From an uncultured Candidatus Saccharibacteria bacterium (lineage in GTDB: Bacteria > Patescibacteriota > Minisyncoccia > Minisyncoccales > CAZKCU01), in the NCBI GenBank assembly GCA_964431915.1, contig CAYSLI010000002.1, positions 14,013 through 78,012 on the forward strand: a stretch of 64,000 nt of DNA. Reading direction: 5' to 3'. Shown here piece by piece: positions 19,753-37,565 of this stretch. The first letter of the stretch is position 1. Every line of letters starts with the position of its first letter. The notes beneath the pieces were generated by a model. The model was not told the DNA's origin and searched no databases. It was given only the letters and a program-made list of their open reading frames with translations. Position numbers and translations under genes: made by a program.

Positions 19753-20043
19753 ATGGTTACGCAAAAAGAAGTAAAAAGAGTAGCAAAATTAGCGAGAATT
19801 GGTTTAACTAAAAAGGAAGAAGAAAAGTTTAGCAGGGAGCTTTCTTTGATTTTGAATTATGTGGAAAAATTAAAAGAAGTTAATATTTCAAAAACTCTAC
19901 CAACCAGCCACTCAATTAAAATGGAAAATGTAATGAGAGAAGACTTAGAAAACGAAAAATTAAAAATGAAAAATGGAAAATTATTGAAGTTGGCACCCGA
20001 GACTAAAAACGGCTATTTAAAAGTAAAATCTATTTTTAAATAA
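19753..20043 (+). CDS. gatC: Asp/Glu-tRNA amidotransferase subunit C
   Basis: VKRVAKLARIGLTKKEEEKFSRELSLILNYVEKL; directly upstream of gatA. Confidence 0.88.
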   Translation: MVTQKEVKRVAKLARIGLTKKEEEKFSRELSLILNYVEKLKEVNISKTLPTSHSIKMENVMREDLENEKLKMKNGKLLKLAPETKNGYLKVKSIFK

Positions 20044-20095: not shown

Positions 20096-21514
20096 GTGGA
20101 ATTAAAAAATTTAACAATAAAAGAAATTCATGATAGTTTATTAAAAAAAGAGTTTTCAGCTTTTGAACTCTGTAAAATTCATTTAGAGAAAATCAAAAAA
20201 GAAGACAAAAAATTCCAAGCTTTTTTAAGTGTAAGTAAGGATTTAGCAATTAGTCAGGCAAAGGAAATTGACGAGATGATTTCTCAAGGGAGAGAAACTT
20301 CAATTCTGGCCGGTATTCCTCTGGCAGTTAAAGATAATATTTTAGTTGAAAATATTAAATGTACAGCTGGCTCAAAAATTCTGGAAAATTATATCGCTCC
20401 GTATGATGCCACTGTCATAAAGAAACTGAAAGAAATTGGGGCAGTAATTTTAGGAAAGACAAATATGGATGAATTTGCCATGGGTTCTTCGACCGAAAAT
20501 TCAGCTTTTGGGCCAACCTGTAATCCCCATGATTTAACCCGGGTCCCCGGAGGGTCTTCCGGGGGATCGGCAGCTGCTGTTTCTGCTAATCTCAGCTGTT
20601 ATGCTTTAGGCTCTGATACTGGAGGCTCTATACGTTTGCCAGCTTCTTTTTGCGGAGTAGTTGGACTAAAACCAACTTATGGAGCAGTTTCTCGTTATGG
20701 CTTAATTTCTATGGCTTCTTCCTTAGACCAGATAGGGCCTATTACTAAAACAGTCAAAGACGCTAAAATAGTTTTTGAGACTATTCAAGGAAAAGACAGA
20801 ATGGACTCAACAAGCGTTGAAAAGTCAAAAGCCAAAAGTCAAAAATTAAAAATTAAAGAATTACGCATTGGCATCCCTAAAGAATATTTTATTAAAGGAA
20901 TGGATGCTGAGACAGAAAGAATAATAAGAGAGGCAATTAAAAAAATTGAAGCCTTGGGAACAAAAATTGAAGAAATAAGTTTACCTCATACCGAATATGC
21001 CCTTGCCACTTATTATTTAGTGATGCCTTCTGAAGCCTCAGCTAATTTAGCGAGATATGATGGGATAAGGTATGGATATTCCTCTAAAGAAACAGGTACT
21101 TTATTAGATGTTTATTTAAAGTCAAGGGAAGAAGGTTTTGGCCCAGAGGTAAGACGCCGAATTATGCTTGGAACCTATGCTTTATCTGCAGGTTATTATG
21201 AAGCCTATTATTTAAGAGCTCAAAAAGTTCGGACTAAGATTTTAGAAGATTTTAATAAGGCTTTTGAAATGGTTGACCTTATTTTGACTCCTACTTCGCC
21301 AGCTCCGGCTTTTAAGATTGGAGAAAAAATTACCAACCCCTTAACAATGTATCTATCTGATATTTTTACTGTTTCAGTAAATTTGGCCGGATTACCCGCT
21401 CTTTCTCTGCCTTGCGGTAAAACTCATGACCTTCCGGTAGGGCTTCAAATCATTGGAAAGGCTTTTGAGGAAAACAAAATTTTAGAGTTTGGAGAAGTTT
21501 TCGAAAAATTATAA
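20096..21514 (+). CDS. gatA: Asp/Glu-tRNA amidotransferase subunit A
   Basis: Amidase signature GGSSGGSAAAV, GSDTGGSIRLPA; GTG start. Confidence 0.93.
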   Translation: MELKNLTIKEIHDSLLKKEFSAFELCKIHLEKIKKEDKKFQAFLSVSKDLAISQAKEIDEMISQGRETSILAGIPLAVKDNILVENIKCTAGSKILENYIAPYDATVIKKLKEIGAVILGKTNMDEFAMGSSTENSAFGPTCNPHDLTRVPGGSSGGSAAAVSANLSCYALGSDTGGSIRLPASFCGVVGLKPTYGAVSRYGLISMASSLDQIGPITKTVKDAKIVFETIQGKDRMDSTSVEKSKAKSQKLKIKELRIGIPKEYFIKGMDAETERIIREAIKKIEALGTKIEEISLPHTEYALATYYLVMPSEASANLARYDGIRYGYSSKETGTLLDVYLKSREEGFGPEVRRRIMLGTYALSAGYYEAYYLRAQKVRTKILEDFNKAFEMVDLILTPTSPAPAFKIGEKITNPLTMYLSDIFTVSVNLAGLPALSLPCGKTHDLPVGLQIIGKAFEENKILEFGEVFEKL

Positions 21515-22075: not shown

Positions 22076-22378
22076 CGCGCCGTGGAGGAGTAGTACCTTG
22101 CGAGGCCCATAAAATCTTGTGGCCCAGAATGGCAACATTCTGTGGAAAATTCCCGAAATTGCTGGGAACCCCCGTAAGATAGCGAGCTTGTGAGCTCTAT
22201 CTCATGGGGCAATCAGCAGCCAAGCCGAGCACATAAAGTGTTATGTGCTTGGAAGGTTCAGAGGCTATAATGGGAACTTCCTTTTTAAAGAAGGAAGATG
22301 GTATAGTCCATTCCATTTGGAAACAAATGGTTAATATTAAAGAACCTCGAGACGTCCGTGCAATTCGGACCGGCGCAA
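22076..22378 (+). tRNA. initiator tRNA-fMet(CAU), split by a group I intron (exons 22076-22110 and 22343-22378)
   Basis: Joined exons form a cloverleaf: CGCGCCG/CGGCGCA acceptor with C1xA72, A11:U24, stem CGAGG/CCTCG, loop CCCAUAA, T arm GTCCG-TGCAATT-CGGAC, A73. Confidence 0.8.
22111..22342 (+). ncRNA. group I intron (IC3-like core, no ORF) in the anticodon loop after CAU
   Basis: P1 CCAU/GUGG with U.G at the 5' splice site; P/Q/R/S-like AAATTGCTGGGAA, AATCAGCAGCC, GTTCAGAGGCTATAA, AAGATGGTATAGTCC; P2-P9 helices all pair; terminal G22342. Confidence 0.8.
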
Positions 22379-22386
22379 CTAGATTA

Positions 22387-22458
22387 GCCGGTGTAGCTTA
22401 ATGGTTAAAGTGGGGCTCTCATAAGGCTTAGATGAAGGTTCGATTCCTTCCATCGGCA
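22387..22458 (+). tRNA. tRNA with CAU anticodon (elongator Met or Ile2), wobble-rich anticodon stem
   Basis: GCCGGTG/CATCGGC acceptor, D loop AATGGTTA, loop CTCATAA, T arm GAAGG-TTCGATT-CCTTC; anticodon stem has 3 G.U pairs. Confidence 0.7.
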
Positions 22459-22469
22459 CTCAAATTTTT

Positions 22470-22523: not shown

Positions 22524-23477
22524 ATGAGGAAAATAAAGGAATCTGTTAGAATAAAAGAAATTGGAACCAAATGGAATGACTCTATCGAGAATCTTTTATA
22601 TAATTGGCATTGGAAGGAGAATTTAATGCACAAAGAAATTGGAAAGAAACTTGGTATTCCACGCCCCACTATAACCCGTTGGTTTAGACAGTTAGGAATT
22701 CCTTCTCAGAGTTGCGCTCGGTTTACAAATAATAATCTATTGTATGTAGGACCTAACCGTCTGCCTAAAAAACCAAGATTACCAAAAAAGCCTCACTTCC
22801 GCATTTCGGTTGATGAAAATTTCTTTAAAAATTGGTCTTCACAGATGGCTTATGTTTTAGGGTATTTTACTGCTGATGGAAATATGTTTGTTAATCCGAA
22901 TGGATCTCATTATATAGGATTTACTTCCACGGACTATGATTTAATATCTAATGTGCGAGAAATTTTAGGCTCTGAGCATAAAATAGGAGTACAAGAATAC
23001 GAAAACCGCAAAGGCAGAATTCAATATTGTTTACAAATCGGAGGTAAGAAGCTATTTCAGGATTTACTTAATCTTGGATTAACGCCAAATAAAAGTAAAA
23101 AGGTAGAATTACCTAAAATCCCTAAAGTTTATTTTAAGCATTTTATTAGAGGATATTTTGATGGAGATGGGTGTGTGAGCTTTGGGTTTTATCAGAAAAA
23201 AGATAGAAGAAAACTTGGCTCTACTTTAATCACAAGGTTTAGTTCTGGTAATAGAAAATTTCTTAAAGATTTATTAAAATTTCTTCGAATATATACAAGA
23301 ATAAAAGGAGGTTGCATTTATCGGAAACAAGAAGGAAGTTATGATTTAGCATTCAGTATTAGAGATAGCTTCAGGCTTTATGAATTTATGTATAAAGATG
23401 CTACAGAGAATCAATTTTTGGAAAGAAAATATAATAAATTTCAAGAAGCAATAAAATATTATGCGGGTGTAGCTTAG
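22524..23477 (+). CDS. free-standing homing endonuclease: N-terminal HTH + double-motif LAGLIDADG
   Basis: HTH EIGKKLGIPRPTITRWFRQLGI; LAGLIDADG motifs YVLGYFTADGNMF and FIRGYFDGDGCVSF; stop codon 23475-23477 lies inside tRNA-Asp. Confidence 0.85.
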   Translation: MRKIKESVRIKEIGTKWNDSIENLLYNWHWKENLMHKEIGKKLGIPRPTITRWFRQLGIPSQSCARFTNNNLLYVGPNRLPKKPRLPKKPHFRISVDENFFKNWSSQMAYVLGYFTADGNMFVNPNGSHYIGFTSTDYDLISNVREILGSEHKIGVQEYENRKGRIQYCLQIGGKKLFQDLLNLGLTPNKSKKVELPKIPKVYFKHFIRGYFDGDGCVSFGFYQKKDRRKLGSTLITRFSSGNRKFLKDLLKFLRIYTRIKGGCIYRKQEGSYDLAFSIRDSFRLYEFMYKDATENQFLERKYNKFQEAIKYYAGVA

Positions 23478-23537
23478 TTCGGATAAAGCGCCACTCTGTC
23501 ACAGTGGAGATCGTGGGTTCAAGTCCCATCGCCCGCG
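23463..23537 (+). tRNA. tRNA-Asp(GUC)
   Basis: GCGGGTG/CGCCCGC acceptor, loop CTGTCAC on CCACT/AGTGG, T arm GTGGG-TTCAAGT-CCCAT, G73. Confidence 0.9.
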
Positions 23538-23543
23538 CCTGAA

Positions 23544-32951: not shown

Positions 32952-33575
32952 ATGCTTCAAAATCCCTATACGGGAAAACTTATTGTGATGGAGGGTTTAG
33001 ATGGTTCGGGGCAAAGCACTCAGGCAAACCTTTTAAAAGATTTTTTATTAAAGAAGGGCTATCAAACGGTTTTGACTAAAGAACCGACTCAAGATTCCAA
33101 AGATGGAAGAAAAATTAGAGAAGTTTTAGACAAAAAATCAGAGATTCAGCCTCAAAAATTACAAGAATTATTTGCTCAGGACAGAAAAGAACATTTAGAA
33201 GGTGTCATAATTCCTGCCTTAAAAGAAGGAAAAATTGTTATCTCTGATCGTTATTTCTTTTCCTCTTTTGCTTATGGTACAACTTCAGGTCTTGATCTAG
33301 GGTGGTTAATTGAAATAAATAATGATTTTCTTTTGCCCGACATTACTTTTTTCTTAAAAGTTTCTCCCGAGATTTGCCTAAAAAGAGTTGATGTGAGAAA
33401 TAAAAATAAAGAAAGAACTCTTTTTGAAGAAAAAGAGAAATTATCCAAAGTTTGGCAGGTCTATCAAAATCTTCCTAATCGTTTTGATAACATTTCCGTA
33501 ATTAATGGGGAAAAATCCATTGAAGAAGTTGCAGGATTTGTTAAAAAAATCATAAAGAAAGAACTAAAAATATGA
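32952..33575 (+). CDS. tmk: thymidylate kinase
   Basis: GKLIVMEGLDGSGQSTQ P-loop, ISDRYFFSSFAY. Confidence 0.9.
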   Translation: MLQNPYTGKLIVMEGLDGSGQSTQANLLKDFLLKKGYQTVLTKEPTQDSKDGRKIREVLDKKSEIQPQKLQELFAQDRKEHLEGVIIPALKEGKIVISDRYFFSSFAYGTTSGLDLGWLIEINNDFLLPDITFFLKVSPEICLKRVDVRNKNKERTLFEEKEKLSKVWQVYQNLPNRFDNISVINGEKSIEEVAGFVKKIIKKELKI

Positions 33576-34237
33576 AAATTGCTAAATTTATTGACCACAC
33601 AAATATAAATCTTAAAGCCATGACAAAGGACATCAAAAAGACTTGTCAGGAAGCTAAAAGGTATGGTTTTAGGGGAGTTTGCGTAAATCCCAAATGGGTA
33701 AAATTAGTTAAAAAAGAATTAAGAGGAACTGATATTAAAGTTGTTTGCTTAATAGATCCGCCAATAGGAGGCAGTTCCCACCAAAAGAGGATGGAACAAT
33801 GCCTAAAAGTAAAACAAGATGGAGCTGATAATTTGGATGTAGTAATGAAAATTAATGTGGCAAAACAAGGGAAGTGGGATGAGGTTTTAGAAGATTTAAA
33901 AGAGATCTGCGAAATTGTACCAAGTAAAGTAATTATTGGTTCGGGTTATTTGACTGATGAAGAAATAAAAAAAGCCTCAGAAGTTGTTAAAAAAGCAGGG
34001 GCTATTTGTGTTAAAACTTCAACTGAAAAAGGACCTTTAGAACACCGAGAATTAAAAGAAAAAGCTATTCATTTAAAAATTATGAAAAAAGCAGCTCCCG
34101 GACTTTTAATTAAAGCTGCTGGAAAAATTAAAACTCTAAAGGACTTAAAAATGATGGTAAAAGCCGGAGCAGATATTATTGGAACTAGTTCGGGAGTTGA
34201 GATTATAAAAGAGCTAAAAAATAAAAAAAGGAGCTAA
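33572..34237 (+). CDS. deoC: deoxyribose-phosphate aldolase
   Basis: IDHTNINLKA, YGFRGVCVNP, ICVKTSTE (Schiff-base Lys region), GTSSG. Confidence 0.78.
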   Translation: MKIAKFIDHTNINLKAMTKDIKKTCQEAKRYGFRGVCVNPKWVKLVKKELRGTDIKVVCLIDPPIGGSSHQKRMEQCLKVKQDGADNLDVVMKINVAKQGKWDEVLEDLKEICEIVPSKVIIGSGYLTDEEIKKASEVVKKAGAICVKTSTEKGPLEHRELKEKAIHLKIMKKAAPGLLIKAAGKIKTLKDLKMMVKAGADIIGTSSGVEIIKELKNKKRS

Positions 34238-34256
34238 TCTCTTTTTAGAGAATTAT

Positions 34257-34284
34257 AAAAAAGACTTGTGGACAGGTCTTTTTT
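34257..34284 (+). terminator. rho-independent terminator
   Basis: A-run, AGACTTG-TGGA-CAGGTCT, T6. Confidence 0.65.
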
Positions 34285-34334
34285 GTGTATTTTATACCCT
34301 TATTTTTTTCGTATAAATTTGGTATAATTTAATA

Positions 34335-35543
34335 ATGGCTAGACCTAGAGTTGTAATAATACCTAAAGACAAATTAAAAGGTTTATATCTGCGGAAAAAA
34401 TTATCCTCAGTTCAAATTGCAAAAAGGTTTAATTGTGGCGAAAGAACTATTTATAGTAGATTATACGAATATAATATTCCAATAAGACACGATGTTAGAA
34501 GAACAGATATAACAAAAGATAAATTAAAAAAGTTGTATATCGATAGAAAATTAAGTATTCGTAAAATTGCTAAAATATTTAAATGTGGTCCAAGCACAAT
34601 ATGGACGAAATTATGTCTTTTGGGTATTAAGGTGAGAACAAAGAGCGAAGCGAATAAAGGAAAATATAAGATTAAGATACCCGAGGAGATAAAATTATTG
34701 TATGTAAATGATAAATTATCAATCTGCGAAATTGCTAGAAGATTTGCTTGCTGTACTAAAACCATATCGCAGAGACTTCATGATTATAATATTGCCATCA
34801 GAAAAGAAAAGGTAGAAATCAAAAAAGAAGACCTTGAGGAATTATACGTTAGAAAAAGAATGACGATTTATCAAATTGGAGAGAAATTTAATGTAAACGG
34901 AGTTACCATTTTGAACAGATTAAAGTATTATAATATTCCAAGAAGGAGCAAAACCGAATTGAATACAGAAAAATATAGGATTAAAATTCCTGTAGAGAAA
35001 GCGAAAAATTTATATGTAGATAAAAAACTACCTATTTCAGAAATTAAAAAATTATTTAATTGTCATCATGAAACCTTACGCAAAAGATTATTAAGATCTG
35101 GTATTTCTATAAGAAATATAAGCGAAGCGTTAAAAGGAAAACCTTCAACATTTAAAGGGAAACATCATACACTAGAAACAAGAAAGAAATTAAGCATATT
35201 AACTGTTAAACAATTAGCCTCAGGCAAAATGAAACGGCAAGATACTACAATCGAACGAAAAATAGAAGAGGGGTTGAAGAAAAACCATATTTATTATAAA
35301 AAACAGATTCCTCTATGTAATATTACTGTAGCAGATTTTTACCTGCCGAAATTTAAACTCGTAATCTATGCTGACGGAGATTATTGGCATAGCTTGTCTT
35401 TAGTCAAAAATAGGGATAAAAAACAGAGTGTTATTCTAAAACAAAATGGATATAAAGTTTTTAGATTTCAGGAATATAAAATCAATAAATCAGTAGATGA
35501 TTGCATTAGAAGAATTAAAGAACGAATTTCATCTATAAATTAA
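34335..35543 (+). CDS. homing-endonuclease-like protein: 5 tandem HTH modules + NUMOD3-like motif + Vsr/DUF559-like PD-(D/E)XK nuclease
   Basis: Five ~45-aa repeats (L.LY....LS...IA..F.C...TI..RL....I); GKHHTLETRKKLS; DTTIERKIEEGL...ADFYLPKFKLVIYADGDYWH. Confidence 0.65.
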   Translation: MARPRVVIIPKDKLKGLYLRKKLSSVQIAKRFNCGERTIYSRLYEYNIPIRHDVRRTDITKDKLKKLYIDRKLSIRKIAKIFKCGPSTIWTKLCLLGIKVRTKSEANKGKYKIKIPEEIKLLYVNDKLSICEIARRFACCTKTISQRLHDYNIAIRKEKVEIKKEDLEELYVRKRMTIYQIGEKFNVNGVTILNRLKYYNIPRRSKTELNTEKYRIKIPVEKAKNLYVDKKLPISEIKKLFNCHHETLRKRLLRSGISIRNISEALKGKPSTFKGKHHTLETRKKLSILTVKQLASGKMKRQDTTIERKIEEGLKKNHIYYKKQIPLCNITVADFYLPKFKLVIYADGDYWHSLSLVKNRDKKQSVILKQNGYKVFRFQEYKINKSVDDCIRRIKERISSIN

Positions 35544-35556
35544 ATTCATAAAAAAT

Positions 35557-37005
35557 ATGTATAAACCAATCCTGGGCATTGAGGTACATGTAGAGCTCAA
35601 GACAAAAAGTAAAATGTTTTGTTCTTGTCTGAATGATCCAAATGAGCATCACCCGAACATTAATATTTGCCCAATATGTACGGCACAGCCGGGAAGTCTT
35701 CCTGTGATTAACAAAGAAGCGGTTAGAAAAACAATAAAAACCGGCCTATCTTTGAATTGCCAAATTCCTGAATATTCCAAGTTCGATAGAAAAAATTATT
35801 TTTATCCTGACCTTCCCAAAGGTTATCAGATAAGTCAGTATGACATGCCTCTTTGTAAAGAAGGTTATTTAGAAATCGACGATAGAAAAATTAAAATTAG
35901 AAGGGTTCATTTGGAAGAAGATACAGGCAGATTAATTCATAAAAAAGATTATTCTTTAGTCGATTTTAATCGAGCTGGCATTCCATTAATGGAATTGGTG
36001 ACCGAACCAGGTTTAAGGTCAGCCAAAGAGGCAAGGAAATTTGCCGAGGAATTGCAGTTAATCTTGAGGTATTTAGATGTTTCTAATGCTGATATGGAGA
36101 AAGGACAATTCAGAGTGGAGGCAAATATATCCTTATCAAAAACAAAGAAATTAGGAACTAAAGTCGAGATTAAAAATCTTAATTCTTTTCGGGCAGTAGA
36201 AAAAGGGATTGATTACGAAATTAAAAGACAGACGGAAATTTTAAAATCTAGTAAAAAAGTCATTCAGGAAACTCGGGGCTGGGATGAAATTGCAGAAGTG
36301 ACAGTAGGGCAGAGAGAGAAGGAGGAAGCTCATGATTATCGATATTTTCCCGAGCCAGATTTACCAATGCTTCATTTGGGCGTGGCAGATTATATTAATG
36401 AAGTAAAAGTAGAAATACCCGAACTTCCCCAGGCAAGACGGGAGCGCCTTCAAAAAGAATATCACATAGATGAAAAAACTATCGAAGTTTTTATTCAAAA
36501 TAAAGATTTTGGCGAGTATTTTGAGAAAGTAGTTTCGGAGTTTGGTCCAAGGCTTTCCCAAGAAAAAATTTTGGGATTAATAAAATTGGCGACAAATTAT
36601 TTGATTACTGATTTACAGGGTTTATTAAAAGGAGCCGTAGTTTGCGGCGAAGATTTTCTGATTACTCCGGAAAATTTTGCAGAATTTATTACTCTAATTT
36701 ATGAAGGTGCAATTTCAAGTAAAATTGCCAAACAGGTTCTTGCTGAAATGTTTTCTACAGGTGTCGATCCTTCTCATATTATTGAAGAAAAAGGATTATC
36801 GCAAATAACTGATGAAGCTGAAATTGAAAAAATTATAAAAGAAGTCATTTCCAAAAATTCAAAAGCAGTTCAAGATTTTAAAAAAGGAAAAGAAACAGCT
36901 ATCCAATTTTTAATTGGTCAAATAATGTCTCAGACAAAAGGAAAAGCCAATCCCAAAATAGTTAAAGATATTTTGAATAAACGCTTGATCCCCATGTCTA
37001 ATTAG
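35557..37005 (+). CDS. gatB: Asp/Glu-tRNA amidotransferase subunit B
   Basis: GIEVHVELKTKSKMFCSC, KNYFYPDLPKGYQISQ, HLEEDTG, C-terminal YqeY-like tail. Confidence 0.93.
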   Translation: MYKPILGIEVHVELKTKSKMFCSCLNDPNEHHPNINICPICTAQPGSLPVINKEAVRKTIKTGLSLNCQIPEYSKFDRKNYFYPDLPKGYQISQYDMPLCKEGYLEIDDRKIKIRRVHLEEDTGRLIHKKDYSLVDFNRAGIPLMELVTEPGLRSAKEARKFAEELQLILRYLDVSNADMEKGQFRVEANISLSKTKKLGTKVEIKNLNSFRAVEKGIDYEIKRQTEILKSSKKVIQETRGWDEIAEVTVGQREKEEAHDYRYFPEPDLPMLHLGVADYINEVKVEIPELPQARRERLQKEYHIDEKTIEVFIQNKDFGEYFEKVVSEFGPRLSQEKILGLIKLATNYLITDLQGLLKGAVVCGEDFLITPENFAEFITLIYEGAISSKIAKQVLAEMFSTGVDPSHIIEEKGLSQITDEAEIEKIIKEVISKNSKAVQDFKKGKETAIQFLIGQIMSQTKGKANPKIVKDILNKRLIPMSN

Positions 37006-37013
37006 GCTAGAGG

Positions 37014-37042
37014 TTGACAAAATTAAAATAAAGTAATATAAT
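37014..37042 (+). promoter_or_regulatory. sigma70-like promoter
   Basis: TTGACA-17 nt-TATAAT, consensus in both hexamers. Confidence 0.5.
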
Positions 37043-37075
37043 TATAATATTAGTATCTTTAAAAAGGAAGTAATA

Positions 37076-37369
37076 ATGATTGTAAAAGAGTGTAATACGA
37101 TAGATTCAAAAGGACGGTTTTACTTTCCCAAAAAGGATAGGGAAGATTTTAAAGATAAAGTAGTTATATTCAGGTTTCATGATTATCTTTGTTTTTCGAC
37201 CATGCAAGAATGGAATCAGCTATTAACTAAGAAACTCAGAGGCCTTAAAGGGAAAGAATTTCATATGATGGAACGATATCTTTGGAGTTCTGTTTTTGTT
37301 AAAAAAATAGATAAATGGAAAAGGGTATATGTTCCTTCCGGATTAAGAGAAAGGAGGAAACATAAGTGA
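37076..37369 (+). CDS. short MraZ/SpoVT-AbrB-like DNA-binding protein
   Basis: Two MraZ-type motifs DSKGRFYFPKKDRE and DKWKRVYVPSGLRE; only 97 aa. Confidence 0.55.
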   Translation: MIVKECNTIDSKGRFYFPKKDREDFKDKVVIFRFHDYLCFSTMQEWNQLLTKKLRGLKGKEFHMMERYLWSSVFVKKIDKWKRVYVPSGLRERRKHK

Positions 37370-37557
37370 TGAAAAAGATGGGAGAAAAAGAGAAAGAGGT
37401 TGTAGCTATTCAGTGGAATTCCAGCGAAGGACAGGTAACGTTTCGTGAGCGGTATGCAGATGAGTCAGTAGGACCCATTGAAAACACTTCGCTCGAGACA
37501 AATAACCCCAATAAATTTCTGCTTTTAAAAAACAAAATTGAGAGGGAAAGGTTATAA
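37366..37557 (+). CDS. small hypothetical protein, translationally coupled to the MraZ-like gene
   Basis: AAGGAGG 8-11 nt upstream of the GTG/ATG start; 4-nt overlap with the upstream stop. Confidence 0.45.
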   Translation: MMKKMGEKEKEVVAIQWNSSEGQVTFRERYADESVGPIENTSLETNNPNKFLLLKNKIERERL

Positions 37558-37565
37558 AGTCAAAG

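What the first reader, a model, noticed from the sequence alone, without database searches (positions are those of the whole stretch)
34335..35543. Second homing-endonuclease-like gene: five HTH repeats + NUMOD3 + Vsr-like nuclease between deoC and gatB
The gene has its own terminator upstream (34257-34284). It contains five ~45-aa HTH modules and a NUMOD3-like GKHHTLETRKKLS. The C-terminal domain, DTTIERKIEEGL..ADFYLPKFKLVIYADGDYWH, matches the Vsr/DUF559 PD-(D/E)XK fold. The HTH modules resemble the N-terminal HTH of the LAGLIDADG protein at 22524 (..EIGKKLGIPRPTITRWFRQLGI). This suggests shuffling of a common DNA-binding module between different nuclease domains, as in phage free-standing HEs. 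It separates gatB from gatCA, which lie 14 kb upstream.
Basis: partly seen in the sequence, partly recalled or inferred. Interest (0 to 1): 0.55.

Follow-up and report, generated by a model that had tools for sequence, protein, structure and literature searches.

The report
Mobile nuclease gene parked beside gatB
This is a selfish, site-specific "homing" nuclease gene of a known family (Vsr-like, EDxHD) with an unusually long array of five DNA-binding modules; in some tiny Parcubacteria, and not in their close relatives, it sits directly in front of the essential gene gatB.

Summary
The ORF 34335-35543 (402 aa) is real and its domains are as described: five ~50-aa HTH modules, a NUMOD3 motif and a C-terminal Vsr-like nuclease. 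The nuclease's best sequence and fold match is I-Bth0305I, the EDxHD homing-endonuclease prototype. All five catalytic positions are invariant in 36 homologues.

Every homologous lineage checked lies immediately upstream of gatB (-8 to +25 nt for called genes), whatever gene precedes it. Yet 0 of 80 species-representative genomes with the closest GatB carry it. That includes a near relative with 90-95% identical flanks, where deoC abuts gatB.

Against other carriers, DNA identity peaks in the gene's 3' half (82-95%) while flanks are 55-86%. Truncated remnants and 1-5-module variants occur at the same site. The gatB 5' ~850 nt is mosaic among close relatives.

Best reading: a free-standing EDxHD homing-endonuclease cassette (terminator hairpin, own promoter, ORF) specialised on the gatB 5' flank.

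Two claims fail. The HTH similarity to ORF 22524 is not significant, although the same module is fused to LAGLIDADG, GIY-YIG and HNH nucleases elsewhere. The gene does not separate gatB from gatCA. This is a new variant of a known kind.

The parts
34257..34284 (+). Terminator-like hairpin (AAAAAAGACTTGT GG ACAGGTCTTTTTT) just after the deoC stop codon. It forms the left part of the conserved cassette.
   Evidence: It is the only terminator-like site in the scan of 33900-35800 and appears as inverted repeat I7. The same hairpin precedes the gene in seven carrier lineages. The stem is kept through G-U and one compensatory change.
34320..34328 (+). Extended -10 promoter-like element TGGTATAAT. 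It ends 6 nt before the ATG, so the transcript would be leaderless or nearly so (inferred).
   Evidence: The block TTTTTTCGTATAAATT(T/A)G(G/C/A)TATAATTTAATAATGG is almost invariant in 7 lineages whose proteins are only 59-76% identical to the window's. The simple promoter scan did not call it because there is no -35 match.
34335..35543 (+). Homing-endonuclease gene, 402 aa (5 HTH modules, NUMOD3, EDxHD nuclease).
   Evidence: GC is 28.2%, against 35.1% for the window.
34335..35120 (+). Five tandem three-helix HTH modules: R1 34335-34499, R2 34500-34664, R3 34665-34811, R4 34812-34970, R5 34971-35120.
   Evidence: The repeats align in register. The repeat HMM delimits them at 83-91 bits each. 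The AF2 model has 5 x 3 helices with pLDDT 73-87.
35103..35195 (+). NUMOD3 motif (..GKHHTLETRKKLS..), the linker between the HTH array and the nuclease.
   Evidence: Pfam PF07460 scores 30.5 bits against a cutoff of 20.4. G275, H277, H278 and K285 are invariant in 36 homologues.
35217..35528 (+). EDxHD (Vsr-like) nuclease domain. Catalytic codons: E307 35253-35255, D334 35334-35336, D347 (the 'x' position) 35373-35375, H352 35388-35390, D361 35415-35417.
   Evidence: The best PDB sequence hit is 3r3p, I-Bth0305I, at E 2.7e-5. The best fold hit is 3r3p_B, with target-normalised TM-score 0.84 and rmsd 2.6 A. All five residues are invariant in 36 homologues. Codons were checked. Residue roles are taken from PMC3239194.
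35544..35556 (+). 13-nt spacer between the endonuclease stop codon and the gatB ATG.
   Evidence: Coordinates are. In other carriers the spacer ranges from -8 nt (the overlap ATGTATAA) to +25 nt.
35557..36400 (+). The 5' ~850 nt of gatB. This is the likely region of the homing site and of the co-conversion tract (inferred).
   Evidence: This stretch is 68-83% identical between the window, L021 and L022 in all three pairs. The gatB 3' ~500 nt and the outer flanks are about 85-98% identical, with isolated lower windows. The nearest relative also changes along the gene.
33572..34237 (+). deoC, the upstream neighbour. In relatives without the element its stop codon lies 5-57 nt from the gatB start.

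Best explanation
The gene is a free-standing homing-endonuclease cassette of the EDxHD (Vsr-like, I-Bth0305I-type) family. It is resident in the chromosome of a Parcubacteria/Nealsonbacteria-like bacterium.

Shown:
- The protein has five HTH modules and a NUMOD3 motif upstream of an EDxHD nuclease with an intact catalytic set.
- The gene with its own upstream hairpin and promoter-like block forms a 1.3-kb segment (34238-35556) that is absent from the closest relatives.
- In every carrier the gene abuts the gatB start codon, whatever lies upstream.
- It is more similar between carriers than the housekeeping genes around it.
- Decayed and shortened copies exist at the same site.

Inferred:
- The HTH/NUMOD3 array reads a long stretch, probably several tens of bp, of the conserved 5' end of gatB or its start-codon junction in alleles that lack the element.
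- The nuclease cuts there, perhaps as a dimer like I-Bth0305I.
- The break is repaired by recombination with a carrier allele. This copies the cassette in and co-converts neighbouring gatB, deoC and tmk sequence.
- Because there is no room for a promoter between the gene and gatB, the two are co-transcribed. This ties the element to an essential gene.
For: Family:
- 3r3p (I-Bth0305I) is the top hit by sequence and by fold.
- E307, D334, D347, H352 and D361 are invariant in 36 homologues. They align to the E, D196, N208, H213 and D222 positions described in PMC3239194.

Site specificity:
- 12 of 12 lineages with called genes have the gatB start -8 to +25 nt from the endonuclease stop codon.
- In the metagenome scan, 30 of 30 near-full-length homologues with downstream sequence, plus 4 shorter close-homologue matches, also precede gatB. 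So do about a dozen distant relatives with 39-47% nuclease identity.
- The upstream neighbour varies: deoC, DHFR, NUDIX, Ham1, tmk on the opposite strand, or small ORFs.

Patchiness:
- 0 of 80 GTDB species representatives with GatB 49-82% identical carry the gene.
- In 57 of 74 of these, an upstream ORF ends 60 nt or less from gatB.
- L021 has flanks about 84-96% identical to the window and deoC 44 nt from gatB.

Horizontal movement:
- The window's endonuclease 3' half is 82-95% identical in DNA to L109, L121 and L111. The flanking tmk, deoC, gatB and miaA are 55-86% identical.
- L010 versus L013: GatB 54%, endonuclease 74%. L001 versus L002: GatB 58%, endonuclease 73%. L001 versus L018: GatB 78%, endonuclease 58%.
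- GC is 28% against 35% for the window.

Life-cycle signs:
- L144 keeps only a 91-aa 3' remnant between deoC and gatB.
- L142 has an atpF-endonuclease fusion.
- Versions with 1 to 5 modules exist.

Flank effects:
- The gatB 5' ~850 nt is mosaic among three close genomes.
- The gatB start is MY(K/E) in 10 of 11 carriers against 13 of 80 non-carriers.

Other:
- The upstream cassette is conserved.
- Phage contigs encode shorter relatives of the nuclease, median 237 aa.
Against: - No cleavage activity or target site has been shown, and the recognition sequence could not be deduced.
- Over 26 lineages, endonuclease and GatB identities are positively correlated (Mantel r=0.48, p=0.002). Part of the history is therefore vertical, or transfer is limited to related hosts.
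- The gatB 5' region is intact in carriers, so how the carrier allele escapes cutting is unknown. The discriminating positions found are not phylogenetically independent.
- The GTDB candidates were found through exact peptide patterns. The figure of 0 of 80 is a biased sample, not a frequency.
- The gatB 5' mosaic also separates two non-carriers, L021 and L022. It fits repeated invasion and loss but does not prove it.
Confidence: 0.75

Rival explanations
1. The gene is domesticated and vertically inherited. In this reading an ancestral Parcubacteria gene upstream of gatB now serves the host, for example as a transcription factor for the gatB operon or a repair nuclease, and has been lost many times.
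For: It always forms an operon-like arrangement with gatB, sometimes with overlapping stop and start codons. The reading frames are intact and conserved at 50-82% identity. There is a positive Mantel correlation with GatB. Remnants show that losses occur.
Against: It is absent from all 80 closest species representatives. An island of 82-95% DNA identity sits inside flanks of 55-86%. There are strong pairwise discordances. GC is low. It carries its own terminator and promoter cassette. The same modules and nuclease occur in phage and in intron/intein homing enzymes.
Confidence: 0.12
2. The gene is an inactive relic kept for its regulatory DNA. In this reading the endonuclease no longer cuts, and the segment persists and spreads by ordinary homologous recombination because it carries the promoter and ribosome-binding context that now drives gatB.
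For: There is no space for a gatB promoter between the two genes. Remnants keep precisely the 3' end next to gatB. The promoter block is more conserved than the protein.
Against: All five catalytic residues and the NUMOD3 core are invariant across 36 sequences as divergent as 50% identity. That indicates selection on the nuclease itself. Full-length ORFs predominate.
Confidence: 0.08
3. The gene is a defence or restriction-type nuclease, or a classical Vsr mismatch-repair enzyme.
For: Pfam DUF559 and Vsr match. There are weak PADLOC hits. JGI labels some homologues 'very short patch repair endonuclease'.
Against: NCBIfam vsr scores 29.5 bits against a cutoff of 97.85. The stretch after H352, which aligns to the loop that carries Vsr's zinc site, has no Cys/His cluster. 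The best PADLOC nuclease hit is itself the 'homing endonuclease' model. There is no methyltransferase or other defence partner nearby. The fixed position beside gatB is not expected for a defence gene.
Confidence: 0.03
4. The gene belongs to an insertion sequence or transposon, with a transposase-like HTH protein.
For: The HTH repeats hit transposase HTH models. IS256_Zn_var scores 45.6 bits, far below its cutoff of 150.
Against: There is no DDE or other transposase catalytic domain. No terminal inverted repeats or target-site duplication bound the segment. There is a single copy in the window. The insertion point is the same in all genomes.
Confidence: 0.01

Closest known systems
I-Bth0305I and the EDxHD (Vsr-like) homing-endonuclease family (Dassa et al. 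2009; Taylor et al. 2011, PMC3239194)
   Same: The domain order is the same: an N-terminal HTH/NUMOD DNA-binding region and a C-terminal Vsr-like nuclease. The E, D, x, H, D positions are conserved. I-Bth0305I is the best sequence and fold match. The family includes free-standing members.
   Different: I-Bth0305I has two NUMOD2/HTH motifs, is 266 aa long, lies in a group I intron in phage recA, and has N at the 'x' position. This protein has five HTH modules plus NUMOD3, is 402 aa long, is free-standing in a bacterial chromosome beside gatB, and has D at 'x'. The nuclease domains are only about 30% identical.
Free-standing phage homing endonucleases (T4-type Seg, Mob and Hef; 'intronless homing')
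   Same: The gene sits between conserved genes and has its own expression signals. It is patchy among relatives and marks a boundary of elevated recombination and co-conversion. According to PMC3239194, Hef is itself EDxHD-like.
   Different: The host here is a cellular CPR/Patescibacteria chromosome, not a phage. Phage relatives of this nuclease found here are short (median 237 aa) and lack this HTH module.
E. coli Vsr very-short-patch repair endonuclease (PDB 1vsr, 1cw0)
   Same: The core fold is shared and the catalytic Asp, His and Asp positions align.
   Different: There is no zinc site, no long DNA-intercalating helix and no cognate Dcm context. The score is below the NCBIfam cutoff and marginally below the Pfam Vsr cutoff. 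This protein has a 290-aa sequence-reading N-terminal region that Vsr lacks.
I-TevI / I-HmuI-type modular enzymes built from NUMOD motifs and HTH units
   Same: A nuclease is tethered to an extended, modular string of small DNA-binding units, including NUMOD3.
   Different: The domain order is reversed and the catalytic fold is different. The number of identical-type HTH units is far larger: five here, and up to 12 in relative P0049.

Membership tests
EDxHD (Vsr-like) homing endonucleases | Catalytic domain with the Vsr-like fold, closest to I-Bth0305I | tested here: met
   phmmer against PDB puts 3r3p_A on top at E 2.7e-5. Foldseek puts 3r3p_B on top, with target-normalised TM-score 0.84, rmsd 2.6 A and probability 1.0, followed by Vsr 1cw0 and 1vsr. 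The model's pLDDT in this domain is about 72-90.
EDxHD (Vsr-like) homing endonucleases | Composite motif E...D...x...H...D conserved | tested here: met
   E307, D334, D347 (x), H352 and D361 are invariant in 36 homologues. They align to the E, D196, N208, H213 and D222 positions of I-Bth0305I.
EDxHD (Vsr-like) homing endonucleases | N-terminal NUMOD/HTH DNA-binding region preceding the nuclease | tested here: met
   Five HTH modules and NUMOD3 lie N-terminal to the nuclease.
EDxHD (Vsr-like) homing endonucleases | Gene behaves as a mobile, site-specific insertion, with occupied and empty alleles of one site | tested here: met
   Occupied sites are always at the gatB 5' flank. Empty sites occur in 80 of 80 sampled relatives. 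There is an island of high identity relative to the flanks.
EDxHD (Vsr-like) homing endonucleases | Sequence-specific cleavage of the empty allele near the insertion point | not testable with these tools
   This needs an in vitro or in vivo cleavage assay. No target sequence could be derived computationally.
Vsr mismatch-repair endonuclease (TIGR00632 / PF03852) | Score above the curated family cutoffs | tested here: not met
   TIGR00632 scores 29.5 bits against 97.85. PF03852 scores 26.5 bits against 27.
Vsr mismatch-repair endonuclease (TIGR00632 / PF03852) | Zinc-binding Cys/His cluster after the catalytic His | tested here: not met
   The sequence after H352 is SLSLVKNRDKK, with no Cys or His. 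PMC3239194 notes the same absence in I-Bth0305I.
DUF559 (PF04480) | Pfam gathering score | tested here: met
   The score is 43.7 bits against 20.6. This is an umbrella domain family with no defined function, so membership adds little.
IS / transposon | Transposase catalytic domain, terminal inverted repeats, target-site duplication | tested here: not met

The most novel reading that the evidence does not exclude
The ~50-aa HTH unit may be a natural plug-and-play DNA-reading module of mobile nucleases in CPR bacteria. Arrays of 0 to 12 units are seen. They are attached to four different nuclease folds: EDxHD, LAGLIDADG, GIY-YIG and HNH. Units are gained, lost and swapped between alleles at one and the same target, the gatB 5' end. 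In the same reading, the cassette has captured transcription of the essential gatB gene with its own terminator and leaderless promoter. This would make the element hard to lose and would turn the gatB 5' end into a standing hotspot of inter-species gene conversion in these reduced genomes.
Probability: 0.25. Interest if true: 0.65.

Novelty: new variant of a known kind. Interest (0 to 1): 0.45.

Why it matters
Homing endonucleases are mostly known from phages, organelles, introns and inteins. A whole clade of free-standing ones fixed on a single essential housekeeping gene in bacterial chromosomes is an unusual niche. It comes with clean empty sites, decayed copies, module-number variants and a mosaic target gene. 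This gives a tractable natural system for studying the invasion-decay-loss cycle and homing-driven gene conversion in Patescibacteria. Mechanisms of genetic exchange in that group are poorly known. The tandem HTH array is also a candidate modular DNA-recognition scaffold for long targets. For annotation, the gene should not be labelled 'very short patch repair endonuclease'.

Tried and rejected
1. Link to the window's LAGLIDADG ORF 22524. BLASTP gave E 0.16. The repeat HMM found no hit in the six-frame window and E 0.2-0.75 in a direct test. Pfam HTH_23 was below its cutoff. Rejected as a specific relationship.
2. IS/transposon reading. There are no TIRs, no TSD and no transposase domain.
3. 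Defence-system reading. PADLOC gave only weak hits, the nuclease one being 'homing endonuclease'.
4. Simple co-conversion gradient in GatB protein identity against L021. There is no clean 5'-to-3' gradient at the protein level. The DNA three-way comparison was more informative.
5. Endonuclease versus GatB distance correlation. It was not significant in 10 lineages but significantly positive in 26 lineages that include near-duplicates and distant subfamilies. 'No co-divergence at all' is therefore rejected.
6. Deriving the target site from positions that discriminate carriers from non-carriers. This gave candidates in gatB codons 2-6 only, confounded by relatedness and hitch-hiking.
7. Other copies in the window: none.
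8. Other HTH-module genes at gatB in non-carrier loci: none.
9. Literature search for a gatB-associated homing endonuclease or free-standing ones in CPR found nothing relevant.
10. Source names for the protein: none on record.
Full report
OBSERVATION

The ORF is present exactly as reported: 34335..35543 on the + strand, ATG to TAA, 402 aa.

Pfam finds repeated HTH matches over residues 1-262. It finds a NUMOD3 motif at 257-287 (30.5 bits, cutoff 20.4). It finds DUF559 at 295-398 (43.7 bits, cutoff 20.6). Vsr scores 26.5 bits, just below its cutoff of 27.

The N-terminal 262 residues split into five units of 49-55 aa that align in register, with the consensus ..I(P/K)k..Lk.LYv.kKLSi.eIAk.F.C...TI..RL..ynI.iR. 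A profile built from these five units re-delimits them at 83-91 bits each, which is circular by construction. That profile hits nothing else in the six-frame translation of the window. The units are also visible as 67-83% identical DNA repeats. An AlphaFold2 model built on 36 homologues (mean pLDDT 74.6) shows five separate three-helix bundles, then a linker helix, then an alpha/beta domain.

The hairpin at 34257-34284 followed by a T-run is the only terminator-like site in 33900-35800. One such site is about what chance gives in 1.9 kb (0.8 expected), so its position and conservation are what matter.

WHAT THE NUCLEASE IS

By sequence, the best solved-structure relative of the C-terminal 147 aa is 3r3p, the catalytic domain of I-Bth0305I (E 2.7e-5), followed by the DUF559 protein 3hrl. 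By fold, the best match of the model is again 3r3p (target-normalised TM-score 0.84, rmsd 2.6 A, 29% identity), followed by E. coli Vsr (1cw0, 1vsr) and 3hrl.

I-Bth0305I is the prototype of the EDxHD homing-endonuclease family. That family has N-terminal NUMOD/HTH motifs and a C-terminal Vsr-like nuclease with conserved E, D, x, H, D. The enzyme is a homodimer that contacts up to 60 bp and leaves 2-nt 5' overhangs. Family members occur in introns and inteins and as free-standing genes, including phage Hef (PMC3239194).

The crystal form is a D196A/H213A mutant. This explains the two apparent mismatches in the alignment. The corresponding residues here are E307, D334, D347 (the 'x' position), H352 and D361. 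All five are invariant in an alignment of 36 homologues whose identity to the window protein falls as low as 50% (codons checked).

The protein fails the tests for a true Vsr. NCBIfam vsr scores 29.5 bits against a cutoff of 97.85. There is no Cys/His zinc cluster after H352.

WHERE IT SITS: ALWAYS AT gatB, BUT USUALLY ABSENT

A search of 5.8 billion proteins found about 36 full-length or nearly full-length homologues at 50-82% identity. It also found a more distant group at about 35% identity with one or two HTH modules and several NUMOD3 repeats.

I looked up the genomic context for eleven clusters. These were P0001, P0006, P0026, P0028, P0010, P0016, P0029, P0050, P0046, P0034 and P0031. 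In every case the gene lies directly upstream of gatB on the same strand. From stop codon to gatB ATG the distance is -8 to +25 nt. In several lineages the two genes overlap by ATGTATAA.

The upstream neighbour differs between carriers. It is deoC, DHFR, a NUDIX gene, Ham1, tmk on the opposite strand, or small ORFs after rplK.

A pattern scan of metagenome contigs with the alignment extended this result:
- All 30 near-full-length matches that have downstream sequence are followed at once by gatB.
- So are four shorter matches at 59-87% nuclease identity.
- So are about a dozen relatives at only 39-47% nuclease identity.
- Other distant relatives, including contigs classed as viral, are not next to gatB.

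Conversely, I fetched the 80 GTDB species-representative loci with the most similar GatB (49-82% identity). These are labelled Nealsonbacteria, Paceibacterales, Parcubacteria and similar. None contains the gene or any fragment of it, and none contains any ORF with the HTH module. In 57 of 74 of these loci an upstream same-strand ORF ends 60 nt or less from the gatB start. Where deoC is recognisable, it ends 5-57 nt from gatB in most of them.

The closest relative is L021. Its neighbouring proteins are ThyX-like 92%, Dcd 91%, DeoC 86%, MiaA 88% and MiaB 90% identical to the window's. It has deoC, a 57-nt spacer and then gatB. The window therefore carries a 1.3-kb insertion (34238-35556) relative to an empty site.

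This sample was assembled through exact peptide patterns. It shows that empty sites are common. It does not measure frequency.

EVIDENCE FOR HORIZONTAL MOVEMENT

1. Against other carriers, DNA identity peaks in the 3' half of the gene. It is 82-93% with L109, 87-89% with L121, and up to 95% with L111. The housekeeping genes on both sides are only 55-86% identical.
2. Pairwise identities are discordant. L010 versus L013 gives GatB 54% and endonuclease 74%. L001 versus L002 gives 58% and 73%. L001 versus L018 gives 78% and 58%.
3. In nine of ten carrier lineages the nearest GatB neighbour is a non-carrier.
4. The gene has 28.2% GC, against 33-34% for its neighbours and 35.1% for the window.

There is a caveat. 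Over 26 non-redundant carrier lineages, endonuclease and GatB identities are positively correlated (Mantel r=0.48, p=0.002). Vertical descent or host-range-limited transfer therefore explains part of the pattern. In the 10-lineage set the correlation was not significant (rho 0.16, p=0.29).

SIGNS OF THE INVASION-DECAY CYCLE AND OF FLANK CONVERSION

L144 and L145 keep only the last ~91 codons of the nuclease between deoC and gatB. In L142 the N-terminus of atpF is fused to the NUMOD3-nuclease part, again just upstream of gatB. Versions with one module (P0050, L140), two (P0042, P0046), three (L137), four (P0006, P0015, P0027-P0036) and five modules all occupy the same site. Within the family the modules themselves are mosaic, with two alternative forms of R3 and R5 in different combinations.

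A three-way DNA comparison of the window with L021 and L022 (the latter a complete Nealsonbacteria genome) gave the following:
- Outer flanks and the last ~500 nt of gatB: about 85-98% identity, with isolated lower windows.
- First ~850 nt of gatB: 68-83% in all three pairs.
- tmk: 50-68% for the window against either relative (Tmk protein about 40% identical).

Along gatB the nearest relative of the window changes. In the 5' part it is other lineages, including carriers. In the 3' part it is L022 and L021. This is the pattern expected if repeated homing events drag in flanking DNA from diverse donors. It does not prove that.

The gatB alleles of carriers start with MY(K/E) in 10 of 11 lineages, against 13 of 80 non-carriers (Fisher p=1.7e-6). 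They also differ at the codon before GLEVH. These counts are not phylogenetically independent. They may reflect hitch-hiking, the overlap with the endonuclease stop codon, or target immunity.

THE CASSETTE

In seven carrier lineages whose proteins are only 59-76% identical to the window's, the ~75 nt before the ATG are strikingly conserved, with 82% mean column identity. This stretch contains the hairpin plus T-run, whose stem is maintained through G-U and one compensatory change. It also contains the nearly invariant block TTTTTTCGTATAAATT(T/A)G(G/C/A)TATAATTTAATA-ATG.

The extended -10-like TGGTATAAT (34320-34328) ends 6 nt before the start codon, and there is no Shine-Dalgarno sequence. I infer a leaderless or near-leaderless transcript from the element's own promoter, insulated from deoC by its own terminator.

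A second class of carriers has a different, shorter upstream region..AAATTTAGAAAAAGAAA-ATG.

The distance to the gatB ATG is -8 to +25 nt, so gatB must be co-transcribed with the endonuclease gene. That follows directly from the sequence. The claim that the element now drives gatB expression is inference.

No terminal inverted repeats or target duplication bound the segment, so it is not an IS.

MODULE SHUFFLING

The profile of the five repeats matches the following with high significance:
- Two N-terminal modules in LAGLIDADG proteins P0059/62/64/69/73/83, at per-module E from 1e-9 to 1e-20.
- Four significant modules, plus two weaker matches, C-terminal to a GIY-YIG domain and a NUMOD3 motif in P0063.
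- Two or three modules in HNH proteins P0082 and P0084.
- Twelve modules in the 701-aa protein P0049.

The particular comparison offered, with the window's ORF 22524, is not supported: the score is -0.3 bits, E 0.2-0.75.

Phage-contig relatives of the nuclease are short (median 237 aa) and lack this module.

MECHANISM

Shown:
- The architecture, with an intact EDxHD catalytic set.
- Insertion polymorphism at one site.
- Higher similarity of the element than of its flanks.
- Decayed copies at the same site.

Inferred:
- The HTH/NUMOD3 string binds a long stretch of the conserved gatB 5' region or the start-codon junction of empty alleles.
- The nuclease, possibly as a dimer as in I-Bth0305I, makes a double-strand break near the insertion point.
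- Recombinational repair from a carrier allele copies in the cassette and converts adjacent sequence.

I put 0.75 on this overall. I put about 0.95 on the family assignment, about 0.8 on 'mobile, site-specific element', and about 0.65 on cleavage within or next to the gatB 5' end.

Rivals are a domesticated gatB-linked gene with many losses (0.12), an inactive relic kept because it carries the gatB promoter (0.08), a defence or repair nuclease (0.03) and an IS (0.01).

The gene does not separate gatB from gatCA. gatC (19753-20043) and gatA (20096-21514) were identified from their translations and are 14 kb away. In non-carrier relatives gatB occupies the same deoC-gatB-miaA neighbourhood.

NOVELTY

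The enzyme family (2009/2011) and free-standing homing endonucleases are known. I found nothing in the searchable literature on a gatB-associated homing endonuclease or on free-standing ones in Patescibacteria. The sources give the protein no name, or call homologues 'very short patch repair endonuclease'.

What is new:
- The five-module HTH array on an EDxHD nuclease.
- The existence of a whole clade specialised on the 5' flank of one essential chromosomal gene in CPR bacteria.
- The associated terminator-promoter cassette.
- The recombination hotspot in gatB.

I rate it a new variant of a known kind, with interest 0.45.

Noticed in passing
window 22100-22330 (+), with tRNA-Met 22387-22459, ORF 22524-23477 and tRNA-Asp 23463-23539: There is an Rfam group I intron match (RF00028, 84 bits) just upstream of a tRNA-Met. 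The LAGLIDADG ORF that follows runs into the start of tRNA-Asp. The intron's host gene was not identified.
   Followed up: partly
window 32952-33575 (tmk): Tmk is only about 40% identical in protein (50-68% in DNA) to that of L021 and L022, although the genes on either side are 86-92% identical. This looks like a local gene replacement two genes upstream of the endonuclease.
   Followed up: partly
window ~37000-37560 (mraZ-like ORF 37076-37369 and ORF 37366-37557): This stretch is 55-63% identical to L021 and L022, while those two are 83-87% identical to each other here. It is a second divergent patch, just downstream of gatB.
   Followed up: no
L021 3944-4000 (empty deoC-gatB spacer): The 57-nt spacer of the closest non-carrier holds two tandem copies of a hairpin-forming motif, ACAGAGGACGGG(C/T)CTCTGT, which is absent from the window. 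It could be a terminator or a footprint.
   Followed up: no
P0049 (701 aa, metagenomic; found): This protein consists of 12 consecutive copies of the same HTH module. No nuclease family appears among its best 25 of 72 Pfam hits. It may be a pure DNA-binding array or a partner of a separate nuclease.
   Followed up: partly
L142 161-718: The N-terminal ~45 residues of an ATP synthase subunit b-like ORF are fused in frame to the NUMOD3 and nuclease part of the endonuclease, directly upstream of gatB. This is a deletion or rearrangement product.
   Followed up: partly
cluster of P0016: members P0239 (281 aa) and P0234 (85 aa): Shorter members of 281 aa and 85 aa are recorded with the same longest-contig length (12,078 nt). 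This suggests a split or frameshifted copy of the endonuclease in some strains.
   Followed up: no
window 34451-34765 (-): A 104-aa antisense ORF lies inside the endonuclease gene. It was not searched against any database. It is most likely a by-product of the AT-rich repeated sequence.
   Followed up: no
L108, L110, L008, L112, L122 (upstream of the endonuclease ATG): A second class of 5' region, ..AAATTTAGAAAAAGAAA-ATG, lacks the hairpin and the TATAAT block. It replaces the conserved cassette in some carriers, so the element has at least two alternative expression contexts.
   Followed up: partly
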